Positions 6,091 through 53,668 of a stretch of 64,000 nucleotides of DNA are shown one piece after another. Location of the stretch: contig JBDXGY010000006.1 in assembly GCA_039989895.1 (NCBI GenBank), forward strand, positions 835,092-899,091, read 5' to 3'. Source of the stretch: Hyphomicrobiales bacterium (GTDB lineage Bacteria; Pseudomonadota; Alphaproteobacteria; Rhizobiales; JACESI01). The first letter of the stretch is position 1; each line of letters starts with the position of its first letter. The notes beneath the pieces were generated by a model, which did not search any database, was not told the origin of the DNA, and saw nothing but the letters and a program-made list of their open reading frames with translations. The position numbers and the translations under genes were made by a program.

Positions 6091-8892
6091 ATGCTTGAAA
6101 CAAACTCAAATAACCGCGTTACCTTTTCTCTTAACGGCAAAGAAGTCTCCGCCACAAAAGGCGAAACCATTTGGGATGTTGCCAAAGGTCAAGGCACAAC
6201 AATTCCCCACCTTTGCCACAAAGACACAACTGGCTATCGTCCTGATGGCAATTGTCGTGCCTGTATGGTGGAAGTGGAAGGCGAGCGTACGCTTGTGGCG
6301 TCTTGCATTCGCCCTGTCAGCGAAGGCATGGTTGTTAAAACATCGAGCGAGCGCGCTGAAAAATCACGTAAAATGGTGATGGAGCTTTTACTAGCAGACC
6401 AGCCAGCACGTAATGAAGCACATGATAAATCCTCCCATTTTTGGGACATGGCAGATGCGCAAAATGTGGCAACGAGCCGTTTCCCTAAAATCGAAAAAGA
6501 GTTTATTCCCCTCCTAGACTCAAGCCATGTGGCCATGAATGTTAATCTGGATGCCTGCATTCAGTGTAACCTGTGCACCCGCGCCTGCCGCGAAGTGCAG
6601 GTCAATGACGTGATCGGCATGTCCGGCCGTGGCCGCACCTCTGAAATCATCTTTGATATTCATGATCCAATGGGCTCATCGACCTGTGTAGCCTGTGGCG
6701 AATGTGTTCAGGCCTGCCCGACAGGCGCGCTCATGGAAGCCAGTGTGCTTGACGATAATCAACTAGGCGATAGCAAAGACCATGACCGCGAGGTTCAATC
6801 TGTATGCCCTTATTGTGGTGTTGGCTGTCAGCTTTCCTATAAAATAAAAGACGACAAAATCATCCGCGTAGAAGGTGTTGATGGTCCTGCCAATGAAAGC
6901 CGCCTTTGTGTCAAAGGTCGTTTCGGCTTTGATTATGTAGACCACAAACACCGCCTAACAAAGCCACTTATTCGCCGCGATGACGCGCCAGAAAAAGGCC
7001 TCAATGTTGACCCTAACAATCCATTGACGCATTTCCGCGAAGCCACATGGACAGAAGCGCTTGGTGTCGCAGCAGACGGTCTTGGCGGCTTACGTGACAG
7101 GCTTGGCGGCGAAAGCGTTGCAGGCTTTGGCTCAGCGAAATGTTCCAATGAAGAGGCCTATTTATTTCAAAAACTGATCCGCACGGGCTTTGGCCACAAT
7201 AATGTTGATCACTGCACACGGCTTTGCCACGCTTCATCCGTTGCAGCCCTCATGGAAAATGTCGGCTCAGGTGCTGTAACAGCAACCTTCAATGAAATAG
7301 AGAACGCTGATGTTGCAATTGTGATTGGTGCAAATCCAACAGAAAATCACCCCGTTGCGGCCACCTATTTCAAGCAATTCACTAAGCGTGGCGGCAAGCT
7401 CATTGTCATGGACCCACGCGGTCAAGGCCTAAAACGTCATGCATCGCACATGCTGCAATTCCGCCCCGGCTCTGATGTCGCCATGCTGAATGCTCTCATG
7501 CATGTCATCGTTGAAGAAAAGCTATACGACGAACAATATATTCAAACCTACACTGAAAATTGGGATGCGATGAAGGATCATCTAACCGGGTTTTCACCAG
7601 AAAAAATGGCCCCGCTCTGCGGCGTTGAGGCTGATGTCTTACGCGATGTGGCGCGAACCTTTGCATCCGCCAAAGCTGGCATGATCTTCTGGGGCATGGG
7701 TATTTCACAACATATCCACGGCACAGATAATTCACGCTGCCTCATCTCACTTGCACTTATGTGTGGTCAAATAGGACGCCCGGGCGCCGGTCTTCACCCA
7801 CTACGTGGACAAAACAACGTACAAGGCGCATCAGATGCAGGCCTTATTCCGATGTTCCTGCCTGATTATCAGTCAGTGGCTGATGATGGCGTACGCTCAC
7901 TCTTTAACGGAATTTGGGAGCGCGATGATTGGAACCCTCAACGAGGATTAACAGTGGTTGAAATCATGGACGCGGTCCATGATGATAAAATCAAAGGCAT
8001 GTATGTGCTGGGTGAAAATCCTGCGATGTCTGATCCTGATGTAGAACACGCCCGCGACGCTCTCGCCAAACTCGAATGTTTGGTCGTTCAAGATATTTTC
8101 TTAACTGAGACGGCCAATTACGCCGATGTCATTTTACCAGCATCCGCATGGGCTGAAAAAACCGGCACAGTCACCAATACAAACCGTCAGGTGCAAATGG
8201 GCCGTCCAGCCACCACCCCTCCAGGTGAAGCGCGCGAAGATTGGGCAATCATCACCGACCTTGCCAACCGACTTGGTCTCAATTGGCACTATGGACACCC
8301 ATCTGAAGTCTTTGCCGAAATGAAGCTTGGCATGAAATCACTTGATAATATTACATGGGAGCGGCTCGAAAATCAGGATGTTGTCACCTATCCATCCCTA
8401 TCACCGGAAGACCCCGGTCAAGCGATCGTATTTGGTGACGGGTTCCCACGCGCTGATAGCCGCGCTCGGTTTACGCCAGCGCAAGTGACACCACCCGCTG
8501 AGGTGCCAGATGAAGAATACCCGATGATCCTCACAACGGGTCGTCAGTTAGAGCATTGGCATACGGGCTCTATGACACGGCGCACCAATGTTCTTGATGC
8601 TGTGGAACCACAAGCCAATGCATCGCTACACCCCAAAACTTTACGTAAAATGGGCGTGGCACCGGGTCAGATGATCGATATTGAGACCCGTCGCGGGGTG
8701 ATCTCTATCATGGCACGCGCAGACCGTGCGGTGGCTGAAGACATGGTATTCATGCCGTTTGCCTTCGTGGAGGCTGCCGCCAACACGCTGACCAACCCGC
8801 AGCTTGACCCTTTTGGCAAAATTCCAGAGTTCAAATTCTCCGCCTGTCGCGTTGCAGCGACCAAGAGCGGTGATTTGGAAGCGGCAGAGTAA
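6091..8892 (+). CDS. fdsA: NAD-dependent formate dehydrogenase alpha (catalytic, molybdopterin) subunit
   Basis: NuoG-like Fe-S N-terminus with several CxxCxxC clusters, then a molybdopterin oxidoreductase body. The active-site motif HCTRLCHASSV uses a Cys codon (TGC at 7225), not TGA. 933 aa. Confidence 0.92.
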   Translation: MLETNSNNRVTFSLNGKEVSATKGETIWDVAKGQGTTIPHLCHKDTTGYRPDGNCRACMVEVEGERTLVASCIRPVSEGMVVKTSSERAEKSRKMVMELLLADQPARNEAHDKSSHFWDMADAQNVATSRFPKIEKEFIPLLDSSHVAMNVNLDACIQCNLCTRACREVQVNDVIGMSGRGRTSEIIFDIHDPMGSSTCVACGECVQACPTGALMEASVLDDNQLGDSKDHDREVQSVCPYCGVGCQLSYKIKDDKIIRVEGVDGPANESRLCVKGRFGFDYVDHKHRLTKPLIRRDDAPEKGLNVDPNNPLTHFREATWTEALGVAADGLGGLRDRLGGESVAGFGSAKCSNEEAYLFQKLIRTGFGHNNVDHCTRLCHASSVAALMENVGSGAVTATFNEIENADVAIVIGANPTENHPVAATYFKQFTKRGGKLIVMDPRGQGLKRHASHMLQFRPGSDVAMLNALMHVIVEEKLYDEQYIQTYTENWDAMKDHLTGFSPEKMAPLCGVEADVLRDVARTFASAKAGMIFWGMGISQHIHGTDNSRCLISLALMCGQIGRPGAGLHPLRGQNNVQGASDAGLIPMFLPDYQSVADDGVRSLFNGIWERDDWNPQRGLTVVEIMDAVHDDKIKGMYVLGENPAMSDPDVEHARDALAKLECLVVQDIFLTETANYADVILPASAWAEKTGTVTNTNRQVQMGRPATTPPGEAREDWAIITDLANRLGLNWHYGHPSEVFAEMKLGMKSLDNITWERLENQDVVTYPSLSPEDPGQAIVFGDGFPRADSRARFTPAQVTPPAEVPDEEYPMILTTGRQLEHWHTGSMTRRTNVLDAVEPQANASLHPKTLRKMGVAPGQMIDIETRRGVISIMARADRAVAEDMVFMPFAFVEAAANTLTNPQLDPFGKIPEFKFSACRVAATKSGDLEAAE

Positions 8893-49189: not shown

Positions 49190-49939
49190 TCAGAATCGGT
49201 ATGTAAAGGCACCGGAAACAGTCGCGCCCCAAACATTATCTATCTCGAATTCACCAATCGGATCTGCGGGAGGGGCACCGAAAGGCAATCTTGATGAACC
49301 GGTCTCAAAATCTCCATAATAATCCAATCCAGCATTCAAAGTGAACGAAAGAGAATCATTGAAGTCGTGTTCTATCCCCGCAGTGACCCTCGCTGCGAAA
49401 TTGGTTGTTTGTCCATCATCAACAATAGCAAAAAATGGATTCGGAGGCGGGGCATTTTCCAAGATATCTCTAAATTCATTAAACGCTACCCCGACTCCAA
49501 GTCCTAGCTTTAAACGGCTGGATTCAAGAATGGGCATTGAATAGGCGACATTAGCCAAAACCAAATCAGTTGTGGCCTTGCCTCCGTATCTCTGGTCAAA
49601 ATTAGCAATAGCCGGAAAATCGGCTCGAAAATCTAGATCCCCGTCAATGCGATCATAGCTAATGAAGTAACTAAATTCAGGGCTCACTTCGTAGCCAAGG
49701 CGACCACCGATGCTATATGCTGATCCAAATTTGACGTCACGAGATACGCCGCCCCCCGCAAAAGCACTGCCACCGTTGGTTGTGTTTGTAGACCCGCTTC
49801 TGAAACTAGCCCCTGCTTCAACTGCCCCGTAAAACCCGCCAGTTCTGAAGACATCTGCTGAAACATCATCTTCCGCAAAAGCGGCACCTGTCAAAAAGCA
49901 TGATGAAGAAAATAATGCTGCTGTTAATAGCTTTTTCAT
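49190..49939 (-). CDS. outer-membrane beta-barrel protein (second porin-like paralog)
   Basis: Signal peptide MKKLLTAALFSSSCFLTGAAFA, beta-strand periodicity and a C-terminal ...FTYRF. The track ORF's 80-aa N-terminal extension was rejected. Confidence 0.8.
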   Translation of the reverse strand: MKKLLTAALFSSSCFLTGAAFAEDDVSADVFRTGGFYGAVEAGASFRSGSTNTTNGGSAFAGGGVSRDVKFGSAYSIGGRLGYEVSPEFSYFISYDRIDGDLDFRADFPAIANFDQRYGGKATTDLVLANVAYSMPILESSRLKLGLGVGVAFNEFRDILENAPPPNPFFAIVDDGQTTNFAARVTAGIEHDFNDSLSFTLNAGLDYYGDFETGSSRLPFGAPPADPIGEFEIDNVWGATVSGAFTYRF

Positions 49940-50240
49940 GATTTCAATGAATCCCAACCAAACCCATACAGATTGTTCAGTACCACAATACGAGCCTACG
50001 TATACGATATATGTAACACAACCCGATAAACCATTCAATATTAACGAAAAACAGATTCTGATGGAGCGGCAACTCTGGTTCGAGCAGCCACATTTCGCAA
50101 AGTTAATCAGTATCGGATCTGGGCCATAACTGAAGACAAATAGCATTGATGGTAATTCAACTTGCGACACCAATCGCATGTCTGCTTAGGGCTCAAAGCT
50201 GACCTCCAGAACACCCATGCAGATATTTTCTCATCCCCCA

Positions 50241-51007: not shown

Positions 51008-51123
51008 TGGGGAAATCATATGCAATCGCTTAGCCCCTCTATTCTTTCTCTCAAGAAGCGACTAATGCTGTTGTTATTGTTCCTGATTTTAACACAAAAG
51101 GCAGAACTGAAAGACCGTGATTG

Positions 51124-51924
51124 ATGGCAGATAAAAAGAAAAAAGCCCCGCGCAAGCAATGGAATAATAGGCCTAAAAAACAATCGAGTGGTGCGCCAAC
51201 GCTCAACCCCGATGAGATTGTGCTTTATGGCATCCATGCCGTCAAAGCAGCGCTTTTGAACAAGAAGCGTCGCTTTATCAAAGTCCTCGCCACGCGCAAT
51301 GCTGCCGATCGCTTGACTGAGAGCCTCAACGCACGCGGTTTAAGCGCCGATATTGTAGAACCAGAGGCAATCAACGCCCTCACCGGGCCTGAAGCCGTAC
51401 ATCAAGGCATGGCAGCCCTCGTCAGGCCCATAGAGACACAAGACATCCACGATGTGCAAGATGCAAAGCTTGTGATCGTGCTGGACCAGATAACAGACCC
51501 TCATAATGTCGGTGCGATTATGCGCTCAGCCACAGCGCTTGGGGTTGATGCCATCATCACAACCCACCGCAACGCACCCAGAGAAACCGGATTATTGGCC
51601 AAAACAGCATCCGGCGGTCTTGAGCACATCAATCTTGTGAATGTGACAAACCTTGCCCAAGCACTCACCAAACTGAATGATTTCGGCTTTGTGACCATCG
51701 GACTTGATAGCGAAGGGCCGCAAGGCTTAAATGAGACGCTCTACGGCGATAAAATAGCCCTCGTCTTGGGTGCAGAAGGCAAAGGCCTGCGCCGCCTCAC
51801 CCGTGAGCGCTGTGACGTGCTCGCGCGGCTTGATATGCCAGGCCCAATCAAAAGCCTGAACGTCTCAAATGCCGCAACACTTTCCACATTTATGGCGTCG
51901 CAATATTTAAACAAGAAGACATAA
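51124..51924 (+). CDS. rlmB: 23S rRNA (guanosine-2'-O)-methyltransferase, SpoU/TrmH family
   Basis: Lys-rich N-terminus, an L30e-like substrate-binding domain and SpoU motifs (DQITDPHNVGAIMRSA, LVLGAEGKGL, LNVSNA). Confidence 0.9.
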   Translation: MADKKKKAPRKQWNNRPKKQSSGAPTLNPDEIVLYGIHAVKAALLNKKRRFIKVLATRNAADRLTESLNARGLSADIVEPEAINALTGPEAVHQGMAALVRPIETQDIHDVQDAKLVIVLDQITDPHNVGAIMRSATALGVDAIITTHRNAPRETGLLAKTASGGLEHINLVNVTNLAQALTKLNDFGFVTIGLDSEGPQGLNETLYGDKIALVLGAEGKGLRRLTRERCDVLARLDMPGPIKSLNVSNAATLSTFMASQYLNKKT

Positions 51925-51999
51925 TGAAAATATAGTTTTGATATTTGACTACATGGCACTGATATTCTATTAGGAAAATACCATTTTAAGGGGGAAGTT

Positions 52000-52116
52000 A
52001 TGAATAAAAAGAAATATACAAAGCCAACTTTGAATAAGAAAATCAACTTAACAAAAGTAGTTGCGGTACAAGCTTCACCGGTAGTAAGCGGCAAATTTTT
52101 TGGCACACTAGATTAA
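52000..52116 (+). CDS. small ORF, 38 aa: MNKKKYTKPTLNKKINLTKVVAVQASPVVSGKFFGTLD
   Basis: SD AAGGGGGA 5 nt upstream of the ATG, own terminator, and a paralog whose leader differs only by synonymous changes. It is below the ORF-track size cutoff. Confidence 0.6.
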   Translation: MNKKKYTKPTLNKKINLTKVVAVQASPVVSGKFFGTLD

Positions 52117-52146
52117 ATATCAAAATTGATATATTGAACTATAACA

Positions 52147-52178
52147 AGAACCCGCTTCATTGAAGCGGGTTCTTTTTT
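52147..52178 (+). terminator. rho-independent terminator of small ORF 1
   Basis: 12-bp stem AGAACCCGCTTC/GAAGCGGGTTCT followed by a T6 run. Confidence 0.85.
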
Positions 52179-52304
52179 GCAATTAACTTGGAAATTGAGC
52201 GAAATAAGAATAGAGCTATATTGGCAATACGTTAGGATATCAATATTTGACTGAATAGTAATTATATCTTACTCGTAGAAAACATCATTTTAAGGGGAGA
52301 AGTT

Positions 52305-52418
52305 ATGAATAAAAAGAAATATACAAAGCCAACTTTGAATAAAAAAATCAACCTCACAAAAGTAGTTTCAGGTGGCCCAAATCTAGAAGGTGTAGCACCG
52401 GTAGCAAGCGGCGCATAG
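52305..52418 (+). CDS. small ORF, 37 aa: MNKKKYTKPTLNKKINLTKVVSGGPNLEGVAPVASGA
   Basis: SD AAGGGGAGA, first 21 codons encoding the same peptide as ORF 1, own terminator. The stop codon is created by a 14-nt internal tandem duplication (TAGCAAGCGGCG-CA-TAGCAAGCGGCG, 52402-52427). Confidence 0.55.
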   Translation: MNKKKYTKPTLNKKINLTKVVSGGPNLEGVAPVASGA

Positions 52419-52476
52419 CAAGCGGCGTATTTTTGAGTAGGATTAAATATCAAAATTGATATATTGAACTATAACA

Positions 52477-52508
52477 AGAACCCGCTTCATTGAAGCGGGT
52501 TCTTTTTT
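52477..52508 (+). terminator. rho-independent terminator of small ORF 2 (also faces the convergent 52548-53321 gene)
   Basis: Identical hairpin AGAACCCGCTTC/GAAGCGGGTTCT plus T6. Confidence 0.85.
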
Positions 52509-52547
52509 GCAATTAACTTGGAAATTGAGCGCAATAAAAATAGAGCT

Positions 52548-53321
52548 CTATTGGCAATACGTTAGGTTTTCGATCTTCACTGCTGCGTCTTTGCTCTCGC
52601 CAACGGTGCGCAAAGATCGTTTGCAATGCTCAAGCTCTTCCTCGCTCAAAACATAAAAAGGCCGAGGAAAATCCGTGATACCAATCAGCTTATCTGAAGG
52701 AACATCGACACCACTATCGCGAATTTCCTTCACATTGCGGATAATCGTCACGCCATTGCTCTCCTCTTTCACCACAACAGCGACCTGTATTGCCTTTTGC
52801 GATGAAGGGGCGCGCATCGCCAACTGCCCAGCAACATATGCTGGTATCGGCAGCACATCTATAAGCGACGAATGTGGCTTAGGGTTTGGCCATTTCTTAG
52901 CACTGGGACTGATGTTGATGAAATCATCTGAACGATGGGTATGCGTCAAATAACGGCCATGTTTATGATTCACCGCCCCTATTTTCTGGTGCCCGCCATG
53001 ATAGCCCTTCACAAAATGATCGTGCCGCTTGGTTTTAGGTTTTATAAGTTTAGCGCGCTTTGTTTTCACCTTATGAGAAGAAGCTGATCTTGCTTTGTCA
53101 TGTGAATGTACATGCGGCTTTTTGACGTATTTCCTTTTAGAAGACTTATGCCCACTCACCGTGCGCGTTTTGGTGACAGTTTCAGTCACAGTTTCAGTCG
53201 TCGTGACTGTTGTTGTTTTGGACTTAAAAACTTTATGGCCTGCAAGCGCTGCTTGCTGTGGGAAAGTAAAGGCAGCAAAGGCCAAAAGAAGGCCTGCGGC
53301 TGTATTCGATCGTTTCATCAT
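52548..53321 (-). CDS. secreted His/Lys-rich protein of unknown function
   Basis: Signal peptide MMKRSNTAAGLLLAFAAFTFPQQAALA, a TTVTTTETVTETVTKT low-complexity run and several His clusters (HVHSHDK, HDHFVKGYHGGHQK, HKHGRYLTHTHR). SD GGAGA. I recognise no family. Confidence 0.6.
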   Translation of the reverse strand: MMKRSNTAAGLLLAFAAFTFPQQAALAGHKVFKSKTTTVTTTETVTETVTKTRTVSGHKSSKRKYVKKPHVHSHDKARSASSHKVKTKRAKLIKPKTKRHDHFVKGYHGGHQKIGAVNHKHGRYLTHTHRSDDFINISPSAKKWPNPKPHSSLIDVLPIPAYVAGQLAMRAPSSQKAIQVAVVVKEESNGVTIIRNVKEIRDSGVDVPSDKLIGITDFPRPFYVLSEEELEHCKRSLRTVGESKDAAVKIENLTYCQ

Positions 53322-53578: not shown

Positions 53579-53668
53579 GGAGACGTGGCCGAGTGGCTGA
53601 AGGCGCGCCCCTGCTAAGGGCGTATACGGGAGACCGTATCGAGGGTTCGAATCCCTTCGTCTCCGCCA
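53579..53668 (+). tRNA. tRNA-Ser (anticodon GCU)
   Basis: Acceptor GGAGACG/CGUCUCC, anticodon loop CUGCUAA, long variable arm (UACGG/CCGUA stem), T-loop UUCGAAU, encoded CCA. Confidence 0.92.

What the first reader, a model, noticed from the sequence alone, without database searches (positions are those of the whole stretch)
51937..52566. Tandem small-peptide cassettes with a conserved basic leader and divergent core, a RiPP/bacteriocin-precursor-like layout missed by the ORF track
Two adjacent units share the same five-part layout:
- a conserved ATATTTGACT (-35-like) element;
- a strong RBS (AAGGGGGA or AAGGGGAGA);
- a 38- or 37-codon ORF;
- a 16-bp palindrome, ATATCAAAATTGATAT;
- an identical 12-bp-stem terminator.
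The first 21 residues, MNKKKYTKPTLNKKINLTKVV, are identical in both. The only three nucleotide differences in those 63 nt are synonymous (AAG/AAA Lys, TTA/CTC Leu), while the untranslated promoter-proximal DNA has diverged much more. That argues for selection on the peptide rather than on an RNA. After residue 21 the peptides diverge through indels: VAVQASPVVSGKFFGTLD versus SGGPNLEGVAPVASGA. Copy 2 carries a 14-nt internal tandem duplication that creates its stop codon. The leader contains KKYTKPTL, which resembles the YxxPxL recognition motif of RRE-dependent (lasso-type) leaders, and LTK, which resembles the QLTK at the end of the MccJ25 leader as I recall it. The duplication also copied the last codons of the convergent His-rich gene (ATTGGCAATACGTTAGG occurs in both units), which dates it as a local event. 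No maturation, export or immunity gene is visible in the window, so the class and function are open.
Basis: partly seen in the sequence, partly recalled or inferred. Interest (0 to 1): 0.8.

Follow-up and report, generated by a model that had tools for sequence, protein, structure and literature searches.

The report
Hypervariable small peptides with lasso-type leader
Two adjacent mini-genes encode 37-38-residue peptides from a tiny, previously undescribed family; the conserved front end looks like the docking tag of lasso-peptide precursors, the back end changes even between near-identical strains, and no processing enzyme is nearby, so what the peptides become is unknown.

Summary
Two tandem units (51925-52236 and 52237-52566) each carry a -35-like box, a strong Shine-Dalgarno site, a 38- or 37-codon ORF, a 16-bp palindrome and a hairpin terminator.

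Ten homologous ORFs sit at the same site, between rlmB and a convergent 257-aa secreted protein, in four lineages of uncultured Hyphomicrobiales. Two sister lineages lack the cassette.

All members share one architecture:
- a conserved 22-residue N-terminus with Tyr always at residue 6;
- a linker that varies in length but stays in frame;
- a conserved (P/S)V(V/A/G)S(G/D) motif;
- a dispensable tail.

Residues 6-11 fit the RRE-binding motif [Y/W]xxPx[L/V/I/A/F/Y]. The best PDB match to the family profile is the 22-residue TfuA (fusilassin) leader, though only at E=0.1.

They are not lasso peptides as a family. Only 1 of 8 cores has the obligatory Asp/Glu at positions 7-9, against 40 of 40 known precursors. 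No RRE, protease, cyclase or exporter lies in the 64 kb.

The cassette is a variation hot spot between near-identical strains. The family is absent from Pfam, NCBIfam, GTDB representative genomes, JGI metagenomes, plasmids and phages.

Best reading (about 0.45): a stand-alone RRE-dependent precursor processed in trans. The main rival is an unmodified micro-protein.

The parts
51941..51950 (+). Unit 1 promoter-like box ATATTTGACT (-35 TTGACT at 51945-51950)
   Evidence: Read directly. TTGAC(T/A) is kept upstream of the ORF in L001, L006, L011 and L012. The consensus scan found only weak hexamer pairs.
51988..51995 (+). Unit 1 Shine-Dalgarno AAGGGGGA, 4 nt before the ATG
   Evidence: An SD-like purine run precedes the start in most lineages; it is weak in L015.
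52000..52116 (+). Peptide gene 1 (W1), 38 aa: MNKKKYTKPTLNKKINLTKVVA-VQAS-PVVSG-KFFGTLD
   Evidence: The tail ends in TLD, as does homolog P0002.
52117..52132 (.). 16-bp perfect palindrome ATATCAAAATTGATAT directly after the stop codon
   Evidence: Present in L001. Absent from the L005/L011, L012 and L015 lineages.
52143..52180 (.). Intrinsic terminator: 13-bp stem, 3-nt loop, T-run on the + strand and a T-rich tail on the - strand
   Evidence: A compensatory G:C to U:A change in the L006/L011 stem supports a real hairpin.
52220..52236 (.). Duplicated copy of the last codons of the convergent 257-aa gene (ATTGGCAATACGTTAGG); marks the unit junction
   Evidence: (family D1).
52243..52252 (+). 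Unit 2 promoter-like box ATATTTGACT
52292..52300 (+). Unit 2 Shine-Dalgarno AAGGGGAGA
52305..52418 (+). Peptide gene 2 (W2), 37 aa: MNKKKYTKPTLNKKINLTKVVS-GGPNLEGVA-PVASG-A
   Evidence: It corresponds to the single copy in L001: same leader codons and same truncated PVASGA* end.
52402..52429 (+). 14-nt tandem duplication (TAGCAAGCGGCGCA / TAGCAAGCGGCGTA) whose second copy begins with the TAG stop codon of gene 2; vestigial tail codons follow
   Evidence: Shared with L001.
52447..52462 (.). Second copy of the 16-bp palindrome
52473..52510 (.). Second copy of the terminator, shared with the convergent gene
51121..51924 (+). Flank: rlmB-like SpoU rRNA methyltransferase. Syntenic anchor, not part of the system.
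52548..53321 (-). Flank: convergent 257-aa protein with an apparent N-terminal signal sequence (judged from the sequence), rich in Thr, Lys and His, of unknown family. Syntenic anchor; it is also present where the cassette is absent.

Best explanation
Each unit is an independent small transcription unit: a sigma-70-like promoter, a Shine-Dalgarno site, a 37-38-codon ORF and a hairpin terminator shared with the convergent gene. Each is translated into a precursor-type peptide.

Inferred mechanism:
1. The conserved 22-residue N-terminus acts as a leader.
2. Tyr6, Pro9 and Leu11 (Phe or Tyr in relatives) dock as an extended strand on a PqqD-like RiPP recognition element (RRE), as in discrete-RRE lasso, LPP and PQQ pathways.
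3. The RRE is encoded elsewhere in the genome.
4. Partner enzymes then cleave or modify the C-terminal part.

The only fixed feature of the C-terminal part is (P/S)V(V/A/G)S(G/D). The conserved Ser is the most obvious modification site. The linker is free to diversify, and the tail after the motif is dispensable.

The product is not a lasso peptide in most members.

Shown: the anatomy, coding-type constraint, family architecture, motif fit, hypervariability and absence of local enzymes.
Inferred: RRE binding, processing in trans, and any modification.
For: 1. The genes are real and coding.
- Ten ORFs occupy the same site in four lineages.
- Each has an ATG or GTG start and, in most lineages, a clear Shine-Dalgarno site (weak in L015). 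Tyr is at residue 6 in every one.
- Leader pN/pS is about 0.15-0.35 in most pairs.
- Variable leader sites by codon position are 8/1/11 and 5/3/11.
- Linker lengths of 12-45 nt keep the downstream motif in frame. The motif codons vary mainly at third positions.
- W1 versus W2 shows 3 synonymous and 0 non-synonymous changes in 20 codons. Chance is about 0.008, from S=12.8 of 63 sites.

2. The leader looks like an RRE-binding leader.
- Residues 6-11 fit [Y/W]xxPx[L/V/I/A/F/Y] in all members (motif from PMC13381572).
- In lasso leaders the motif spans -17 to -12 (PMC10368454; 34 of 40 known precursors). That predicts a 22-residue leader here, which is exactly where conservation stops.
- Residue -2 is Thr in one subfamily and Val or Ala in the other. 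Val, Ile and Ala are documented rare alternatives.
- The top hit among 177,635 PDB sequences is the 22-aa TfuA leader, aligned residue 1 to 1, E=0.1.
- A profile built from 40 known lasso leaders ranks 6 of 8 family members above all 452 other small ORFs of the window.

3. The pattern is precursor-like.
- Tandem paralogs have identical leaders and scrambled cores.
- Near-identical strains differ mainly in the cassette. Flanks are about 97% (window versus L001) to 97-99% (L005 lineage) identical, while the core cannot be aligned.
- All 4 substitutions across 2136 nt between L012 and L013 lie in the 144-nt ORF.

4. There is precedent for linear, non-lasso RiPPs with this leader motif and variable C-termini that are Gly-, Pro- and Asn-rich in the one example read: the LPPs.
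Against: - No RRE, leader peptidase, cyclase, kinase, radical-SAM enzyme, YcaO or peptidase-ABC exporter lies within 52 kb upstream or 11 kb downstream. Small ORFs were checked too. None lies within 6-10 kb in the related loci, where the contig extends that far.
- Precursors far from their enzymes are unusual for lasso-type systems.
- Similarity to known leaders is weak in score: 15.8 bits at E=0.1, and 5-6 bits against the lasso-leader profile.
- The bare motif occurs in about 2% of random small ORFs of this window.
- No Pfam, NCBIfam or PHROG model matches.
- The acceptor Asp/Glu needed for lasso formation is missing in 7 of 8 cores.
- The tail is visibly decaying, with a stop-creating duplication and vestigial TLD codons. 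The linker could simply be unconstrained.
- Expression has not been shown.
Confidence: 0.45

Rival explanations
1. Unmodified micro-protein. The conserved basic N-terminal 22 residues, perhaps with the PVxSG motif, are themselves the functional module, for example binding a protein or nucleic-acid partner. The Gly/Pro/Ala-rich remainder is a disordered spacer under little constraint. No enzymatic maturation occurs.
For: - No maturation gene lies anywhere nearby.
- The tail tolerates truncation and frameshift.
- There is no Cys and no invariant acidic residue to cross-link.
- Leader similarity to RRE-type leaders is statistically weak.
Against: - The conservation boundary coincides with the leader/core boundary predicted from the Tyr(-17) rule.
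- The top PDB hit is a lasso leader.
- Substitutions between near-identical strains cluster in the cassette. That is more than simple relaxation predicts: none fall in about 2 kb of flanking sequence, including synonymous sites.
- A short internal motif stays conserved and in frame.
Confidence: 0.3
2. Stranded relics. These are former lasso-type precursor genes whose biosynthetic cluster has been lost. They are now drifting, which is why most cores no longer carry the acceptor residue and the tails are truncated.
For: - The leader is lasso-like, but only 1 of 8 cores is lasso-competent in the canonical register.
- The tail is decaying.
- The cassette has been lost outright in two sister lineages.
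Against: - The leader has stayed under purifying selection, including since the W1/W2 duplication: 0 non-synonymous against 3 synonymous changes.
- The start codon is kept in all lineages and a Shine-Dalgarno site in most.
- The (P/S)VxSG motif is conserved across subfamilies that are only about 40% identical in the leader (identity counted by eye from the aligned peptides).
- The frame is maintained through at least 5 independent indels.
Confidence: 0.12
3. The conservation reflects something other than the sense peptide: a small RNA, or a gene on the opposite strand. The antisense frame encodes a Phe/Leu-rich hydrophobic stretch.
For: - An antisense frame that shares wobble positions is open across the leader in all lineages and gives the same pN/pS as the sense frame.
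- The transcript ends in a strong hairpin, like many sRNAs.
Against: - The antisense ORF is not conserved as a gene. Its length ranges from 17 to 121 aa, starts are GTG or TTG without a Shine-Dalgarno site, the longest ORF is in a different frame in L011 and L024, and in unit 1 it runs about 180 nt into rlmB.
- Predicted RNA structure is confined to the palindrome and the terminator; the leader region is unstructured.
- Rfam gives nothing at gathering threshold, and only terminator-driven sub-threshold hits.
- In-frame indels and variation concentrated at third and first codon positions, with almost none at second, argue for coding.
Confidence: 0.04

Closest known systems
Lasso-peptide precursors served by a discrete RRE (B1), e.g. 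FusA/TfuA of fusilassin/fuscanodin and the Ruminococcus/Streptococcus 'cochonodin' type
   Same: - N-terminal (K)KxYxKPx[L/F] motif.
- A 22-residue leader, as in TfuA.
- Tyr sits 17 residues before the point where conservation ends.
- Thr, Val or Ala at -2 and a small residue at -1.
- Tandem precursor copies with the same leader and different cores.
- The L012 leader YIKPSFVKRANLSIITA shares 8 of 17 positions with YNKPSFEKVASFKDNTM of R. flavefaciens A2 (sequences).
- The TfuA leader is the top PDB hit.
   Different: - Asp/Glu at core position 7-9 is present in 40 of 40 known precursors but in only 1 of 8 here. One member has no acidic residue at all.
- There is no B1, B2 or C gene in 64 kb.
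- Core position 1 is often Val, Asn or Lys.
- A conserved internal (P/S)VxSG motif has no lasso counterpart.
Linear polyphosphorylated peptide (LPP) precursors of Bacillota (PMC13381572)
   Same: - YxxPx[V/L] RRE-binding motif in a conserved N-terminus.
- Highly variable C-termini; the one LPP example read is Gly-, Pro- and Asn-rich, and the variable regions here are Gly-, Pro- and Ala-rich.
- One to three precursor genes per locus.
- Linear, non-lasso products.
   Different: - The extended LPP consensus YxxPxVLxHQxIxFETxxS is not present here.
- LPP precursors sit inside clusters with an RRE, a kinase and a signal-peptidase-like protease, none of which is nearby here.
- Different phylum.
PqqA, the precursor of pyrroloquinoline quinone
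   Same: - A short stand-alone peptide with a lasso-like RRE-binding motif.
- Only a few conserved residues matter for the product.
- pqqA can occur in several copies (my own knowledge).
   Different: The conserved Glu...Tyr pair that becomes PQQ is absent (my own knowledge of PqqA, compared with the sequences). No pqq genes are in the window.
Dispersed hypervariable precursor families such as the prochlorosins (ProcA/ProcM); comparison from my own knowledge
   Same: - Conserved leader with a hypervariable core.
- Precursor genes can lie far from the single modifying enzyme.
   Different: - Prochlorosin leaders are long, Nif11-type, and end in Gly-Gly.
- Their cores depend on Cys, and no member here has a Cys.

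Membership tests
Lasso peptide precursor (discrete-RRE type) | Leader motif [Y/W]xxPx[L/V/I/A/F/Y] | tested here: met
   Y-x-K-P-x-(L/F/Y) at residues 6-11 in all 8 distinct variants. Motif definition from PMC13381572. Base rate in small ORFs of the window is about 2%.
Lasso peptide precursor (discrete-RRE type) | Motif spans -17 to -12, with Thr (rarely Ile/Val/Ala) at -2 | tested here: met
   Tyr6 predicts a leader of residues 1-22, which is exactly the conserved block. Residue 21 is Thr (L012, L015), Val (W1, W2, L001, P0002, P0011) or Ala (P0003). Rule from PMC10368454; it holds in 34 of 40 known precursors.
Lasso peptide precursor (discrete-RRE type) | Asp or Glu at core position 7-9 as macrolactam acceptor | tested here: not met
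   Present in 40 of 40 known precursors. Here it is present only in L001 (Asp9). W1, P0002 and P0011 have no acidic residue before the C-terminal end, and P0003 has none at all.
Lasso peptide precursor (discrete-RRE type) | Adjacent RRE/B1, transglutaminase-like B2 protease and Asn-synthetase-like cyclase | tested here: not met
   Pfam scan of all ORFs of 110 aa or more, plus intergenic small ORFs, across the 64-kb window found only housekeeping genes. Nothing in up to 6-10 kb (as far as each contig extends) of the related loci. The rest of the genome could not be examined.
Lasso peptide precursor (discrete-RRE type) | Sequence-level match to known leaders or curated models | tested here: inconclusive
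   The top PDB hit is the TfuA leader, but at E=0.1. A profile of known leaders ranks the family first in the window at only 5-6 bits. No Pfam or NCBIfam hit.
LPP (linear polyphosphorylated peptide) precursor | Consensus YxxPxVLxHQxIxFETxxS, with a cluster containing RRE, kinase and signal-peptidase-like protease | tested here: not met
   Only the YxxPx[L] part is present (one search compared). No such genes are in the window.
PqqA | Conserved Glu and Tyr (E-x3-Y) that are cross-linked into PQQ, with pqqBCDE | tested here: not met
   No conserved Glu/Tyr pair follows the motif in any member. The feature itself is from established knowledge of PqqA. No pqq genes are in the window.
Cys-dependent RiPPs (lanthipeptides, sactipeptides, ranthipeptides, thiopeptides) | Cysteine residues in the core | tested here: not met
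   No Cys in any of the 10 peptides.
Double-glycine-leader bacteriocins | Leader ending in GG/GA/GS with upstream hydrophobic spacing, plus a peptidase-domain ABC exporter | tested here: not met
   No GG-type leader end. The conserved VxSG has Ser at -2 and is replaced by VVSD in L012. No ABC exporter is in the window.
Known small RNA / cis-regulatory RNA (Rfam) | Covariance-model match at gathering score | tested here: not met
   No hit at gathering threshold. Sub-threshold hits all sit on the terminator hairpin.

The most novel reading that the evidence does not exclude
This would be a new RRE-dependent peptide class, or a scaffold peptide for a small product built on the conserved (P/S)VxSG residues. 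Its precursor genes stand alone, far from their enzymes, at a chromosomal hot spot. There cassette number, promoter repeats and the core sequence change between otherwise near-identical strains, making it a contingency-type, diversifying peptide locus in uncultured Hyphomicrobiales.
Probability: 0.3. Interest if true: 0.8.

Novelty: new variant of a known kind. Interest (0 to 1): 0.6.

Why it matters
If the leader really recruits an RRE-containing enzyme, three things follow.
- A lasso-type leader would be coupled to cores that cannot form a lasso.
- The precursors would be encoded tens of kilobases or more from any enzyme. Cluster-centred genome mining tools such as RODEO and antiSMASH miss that situation by design.
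- Together with the recently described LPPs, this would extend the idea that the YxxP leader/RRE pair is a portable recruitment module reused by different chemistries.

The strain-level hypervariability is of interest on its own: substitutions and indels concentrate in a 150-nt gene while 2 kb of flanks stay identical. It points to diversifying selection or frequent cassette exchange, as seen in antagonism or host-interaction loci.

If instead it is an unmodified micro-protein, it is still a clean, evolutionarily validated example of a small gene that routine annotation often misses. It was left uncalled in two of the four lineages and is absent from the protein collection for this window's genome.

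Tried and rejected
- **Direct protein search with the 38-aa peptide or the 2-sequence alignment.** A concatenated W1+W2 query worked.
- **GTDB representative genomes scanned with a back-translated KKYTKPTLN pattern.** Three hits (Sulfurimonas, Clostridia, Dehalococcoidales), none in a matching ORF, so chance.
- **JGI metagenome contigs.** A profile of the 257-aa neighbour found no relatives. The leader pattern found only the same chance Sulfurimonas hit.
- **IMG/VR, plasmids (tblastn and blastn).** Nothing.
- **HMM search of 1.84 billion cluster representatives.** Only the P0003 cluster and one spurious 812-aa protein.
- **Pfam, NCBIfam and PHROGs on all family members and on the 257-aa neighbour.** No family.
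- **AlphaFold2 of the 257-aa neighbour with a 7-sequence alignment.** pLDDT 38, unusable, so no fold search was run.
- **Functional link between the peptide and the 257-aa neighbour.** Rejected, because that gene sits next to rlmB without any cassette in L019-L022.
- **Diversity-generating retroelement.** Three clustered changes between L012 and L013 are at adenines of one allele. But no reverse transcriptase or template repeat is present, most variation is by indels, and one other change is C to T. Rejected.
- **Antisense hydrophobic ORF.** Considered seriously because it shares wobble positions and gives identical pN/pS. Rejected because it is not conserved as an ORF.
- **Alternative lasso registers.** With the core starting at residue 20 (Thr/Ser18 at -2), 5 of the 9 distinct peptides have an acidic residue at position 8-9. 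With the core starting at residue 22, 4 of 9 have one at position 7. Neither is significant against about 27% expected, and both break the Tyr(-17) rule.
- **Walking beyond the window with window proteins.** Searches returned 'not on record'.
- **Literature search for the peptide strings and for the sample accessions.** Nothing.
Full report
**1.

Window 51925-52566 contains two head-to-tail units of about 310-330 nt that align at 88% column identity. Each unit has:
- ATATTTGACT (51941-51950; 52243-52252);
- a strong Shine-Dalgarno site (51988-51995; 52292-52300);
- an ATG ORF of 38 or 37 codons (52000-52116; 52305-52418);
- the perfect palindrome ATATCAAAATTGATAT (52117-52132; 52447-52462), whose only exact copies in the window are these two;
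- an identical 13-bp-stem hairpin followed by a T-run (52143-52180; 52473-52510).

The first 21 residues are identical. The three nucleotide differences in those codons are synonymous. The 14-nt tandem duplication creates the stop of copy 2. Both units contain a 17-nt copy of the 3' end of the convergent gene. A back-translated leader pattern matches exactly twice, against 0.00 expected.

**2. It is a gene family, but a very small one**

No Pfam, NCBIfam or PHROG model matches the peptides. Searches of 5.8 billion protein clusters returned only four relatives (P0001, P0002, P0003, P0011). An exhaustive HMM search of 1.84 billion representatives found only that same cluster.

GTDB representative genomes, JGI metagenome contigs, IMG/VR and PLSDB plasmids hold nothing real.

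Every relative lies at the same chromosomal site as in the window. That site is downstream of an rlmB-like SpoU methyltransferase and convergent with a 251-271-aa protein of unknown family that appears to carry an N-terminal signal sequence, next to tRNA-Ser. One source labels its assemblies 'Hyphomicrobiales bacterium'.

I used the neighbour protein as an anchor; it has only six homolog clusters. This pulled in more distant lineages. Two of them carry an uncalled small ORF on the rlmB strand:
- L012-14: (V/M)SKKSYIKPSFVKRANLSIITA...
- L015-18: MTQKTYIKPKYINRTNLSIITA....

Two other lineages have no cassette at all. L019-21 has a 9-nt gap and L022 a 111-nt gap. The cassette is therefore an old but dispensable insert at this site. 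The 257-aa gene does not depend on it.

**3. Family architecture**

| Peptide | Leader (1-22) | Linker | Motif | Tail |
|---|---|---|---|---|
| W1 | MNKKKYTKPTLNKKINLTKVVA | VQAS | PVVSG | KFFGTLD |
| W2 | MNKKKYTKPTLNKKINLTKVVS | GGPNLEGVA | PVASG | A |
| L001 | MNKKKYTKPTLNKKINLTKVVS | SEGLGEAGDTIVGPE | PVASG | A |
| P0003 | MQKKKYTKPTLNKDVNLTKIAA | GPVIGPPPPPG | PVGSG | PLIL |
| P0002 | MNKKKYTKPTLNKKFDVTKVVA | NASKGLG | PVGSG | FIPSTVVKGQYSTLD |
| P0011 | MNKKKYAKPTLNKKFDVTKVVA | GTIKGPG | PVGSG | TIFGLES |
| L012 | (M)SKKSYIKPSFVKRANLSIITA | AVEAKDTGL | SVVSD | LVDTGDLAKGS |
| L015 | MTQKTYIKPKYINRTNLSIITA | KTTPETGL | SVVSG | QVKVDPTPNKS |

- Across both subfamilies the alignment reports Met1, Lys4, Tyr6, Lys8 and Pro9 as its invariant columns; reading the aligned peptides, residue 17 is Leu or Val and Asn16 is kept in all but P0002 and P0011.
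- Position 11 is Leu, Phe or Tyr.
- Tyr is residue 6 in every member.
- No member contains Cys.

**4. Is it translated, and on which strand?**

Evidence for coding-type constraint:
- Leader pN/pS is about 0.15-0.35 in most informative pairs.
- Variable leader sites fall 8/1/11 and 5/3/11 on codon positions 1/2/3.
- The linker differs in length (12, 21, 24, 27, 33 and 45 nt), yet the downstream motif always stays in frame. At least five independent indels were all multiples of three, which has a chance of about 0.004.
- The motif codons vary mainly at third positions: CCG/CCC/CCT, GTA/GTT, AGC/AGT, GGC/GGT/GGA.

One caveat applies. An antisense frame shares the wobble positions, is open across the leader in all lineages, and gives the same pN/pS. 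The dN/dS result therefore proves coding-type constraint but does not choose the strand.

Other evidence chooses the strand:
- The sense ORF has an ATG or GTG in every lineage, preceded in most by a clear Shine-Dalgarno site (weak in L015). It has a fixed N-terminus and a stop codon upstream of the terminator where one is present.
- The antisense ORF ranges from 17 to 121 aa. It starts at GTG or TTG without a Shine-Dalgarno site, its longest version is in a different frame in L011 and L024, and in unit 1 it runs into rlmB.
- Second codon positions are the least variable in the sense frame only.

RNA folding shows structure only at the palindrome and the terminator. Rfam gives nothing at gathering score, and only terminator-driven sub-threshold hits. 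The terminator stem shows a compensatory change in the L006/L011 lineage.

**5. What the leader resembles**

- The literature defines the motif recognised by discrete lasso RREs as [Y/W]xxPx[L/V/I/A/F/Y]. It notes that PqqA and a new family of linear polyphosphorylated peptides (LPPs) carry it too (PMC13381572).
- In lasso leaders the motif spans -17 to -12, with Thr at -2 and rarely Ile, Val or Ala (PMC10368454).
- I checked this on 40 published precursors from that paper's supplement. Tyr is at -17 in 34 of 40. An Asp/Glu acceptor within core positions 7-9 is present in 40 of 40.
- In the present family, Tyr6 predicts a 22-residue leader. That is exactly where conservation ends. Residue -2 is Thr (subfamily B) or Val/Ala (subfamily A), and -1 is Ala or Ser.
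- A profile of the family searched against all PDB chains gives the 22-residue 'TfuA-Leader' (6jx3_A) as its best hit. MEKKKYTAPQLAK aligns residue 1 to 1 with MnKKkYtKPtlnK, at E=0.1.
- A profile built from the 40 known leader segments ranks six of the eight family members above all 452 other small ORFs of the window, but at only 5-6 bits.
- The bare motif occurs in about 2% of random small ORFs here, and in 0.2% at exactly positions 6-11.

My judgement is that the leader works like an RRE-binding leader. The evidence is coherent but not statistically strong.

**6. It is not a lasso peptide family**

- In the canonical register only L001 has an acidic residue at core 7-9. P0003 has no acidic residue at all.
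- Alternative registers rescue at most five of the nine distinct peptides, and they break the -17 rule.
- The whole window has no RRE/PqqD, transglutaminase-like protease, Asn-synthetase-like cyclase, kinase, radical-SAM enzyme, YcaO or peptidase-ABC exporter. I annotated every ORF of 110 aa or more and the intergenic small ORFs.
- The window's genes are housekeeping: trpDC, moaC/moeA, formate dehydrogenase subunits, pntAB, mfd, recG, glmSU, accBC, class II RNR and others.
- The flanks of the related loci (up to 6-10 kb, where the contig extends that far) are equally empty.

**7. The locus is a variation hot spot**

- Window versus L001: flanking DNA is about 97% identical, but the core cannot be aligned. 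L001 has one gene with unit-1-type upstream DNA and unit-2-type leader codons and 3' end.
- L006 versus L024 and L005 versus L011: flanks are 97-99% identical, while the cassettes encode P0003, P0011 and P0002. Vestigial TLD-stop codons lie downstream of P0011. L024 breaks off inside the terminator hairpin and L011 begins at the cassette's promoter region, which fits a tandem pair collapsed by assembly.
- L012 versus L013: all 4 substitutions across 2136 aligned nt lie in the 144-nt ORF (AAVE to ANIE; Ser to stop). By position alone p is about 2e-5. A 16-nt repeat upstream of the -35 box also differs in copy number.
- L015 versus L016-18: 4 of 6 variable sites fall in the ~175-nt cassette of a 2947-nt alignment, and none in either flanking gene.

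Cassette number, promoter repeats, core and tail are therefore all unstable, while the leader and the (P/S)VxSG motif persist.

**8. Interpretation**

The best-supported reading is a stand-alone precursor-type peptide. Its 22-residue leader recruits an RRE-containing enzyme encoded elsewhere. Its C-terminal part, anchored by the conserved Ser-containing motif, is cleaved or modified. The LPPs are a precedent for linear products with this leader type. I put this at about 0.45.

| Reading | Confidence |
|---|---|
| RRE-dependent precursor processed in trans | about 0.45 |
| Unmodified micro-protein with the conserved N-terminus as functional module | 0.30 |
| Stranded relic of a lost lasso cluster | 0.12 |
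| Small RNA or antisense gene | 0.04 |

The relic reading is disfavoured by continued purifying selection on the leader since the W1/W2 duplication.

The lasso/MccJ25 analogy is right for the YxxPxL part, wrong for the LTK register, and does not extend to the core.

**9. Novelty and score**

No publication in the searched library contains these sequences, and no curated model covers them. I class it as a new variant of a known kind: a precursor with an RRE-type leader, a non-lasso core, a stand-alone position and hypervariability.

Interest is 0.6. It is well validated as a gene family and has unusual population behaviour. However, it is confined to a narrow uncultured clade, and the key mechanistic step of RRE binding and modification is untested.

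Noticed in passing
window 52548-53321 (-), and P0005-P0010: The convergent 257-aa protein belongs to a tiny orphan family of six clusters. It has what looks like an N-terminal signal sequence, a Thr-rich stretch, a Lys/His-rich middle and a conserved C-terminal domain with two invariant Cys. There is no Pfam, NCBIfam or PHROG hit, and AlphaFold2 gave pLDDT 38.
   Followed up: partly
L012 7040-7110 (- strand) versus L013: A 16-nt repeat (GAGCCTAATTGGTCGT) lies just upstream of the -35 box of the peptide gene. Its copy number differs between otherwise identical strains; L013 also has an assembly gap there. This could give phase-variable expression.
   Followed up: no
L016 2869-3107 (+), and L012 around 7170-7300: In the L012 and L015 lineages an acyl-carrier-protein-like ORF lies between the peptide gene and rlmB on the opposite strand (…GSLEKWDSVAHFRS / MAFEEKLGRQMTTEEIISLETVENFVSIL…). 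It appears split by a frameshift or stop. The window has no counterpart.
   Followed up: no
L016 2305-2865 (+); L015 4001-4234: One or two 77-aa ORFs, with no Pfam hit, occupy the enlarged rlmB-peptide intergenic region in the L015 lineage. Their number differs between contigs (two in L016, one in L015, L017 and L018).
   Followed up: partly
L005 1954-5823; L015 651-1760; window 53579-53668: In two related lineages a tyrosine-integrase island lies just beyond the 253/267-aa gene; in L005 it comprises an integrase, HTH_17 and DUF3987. The window has tRNA-Ser (GCT) at the corresponding position. The window has no island there: an alpha/beta hydrolase follows.
   Followed up: no
window 51938-51950, 52238-52252, 52117-52132, 52447-52462: Half-sites of the palindrome (TTGATAT / ATATCAA) also abut each -35 box. 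The unit-2 half-site sits exactly at the duplication junction. This could be an operator or a recombination-prone sequence. The palindrome is specific to the window/L001 lineage.
   Followed up: partly
window 49190-50179 (-): A 329-aa ORF with no Pfam hit and only a far-sub-threshold NCBIfam match to the rickettsial adhesin Adr (19.9 bits against a cutoff of 210). It lies between the class II ribonucleotide reductase and the tRNA-Gly/tRNA-Tyr pair.
   Followed up: no
L011 1-35: The contig starts with a Nextera adapter sequence (…GTCTCGTGGGCTCGGAGATGTGTATAAGAGACAG), an assembly artefact in the public record. I recognised the adapter from my own knowledge.
   Followed up: no
L012, L015, P0011 peptide C-termini: Both subfamily-B peptides and P0011 end in Ser (…AKGS, …PNKS, …GLES). 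This resembles the C-terminal Ser of the paeninodin-type (BaceA, PadeA, PapoA, PsmA, ThcoA) and SyanA precursors in the list, which are phosphorylated lasso peptides (my own knowledge). L013 has lost this Ser through a nonsense change.
   Followed up: no
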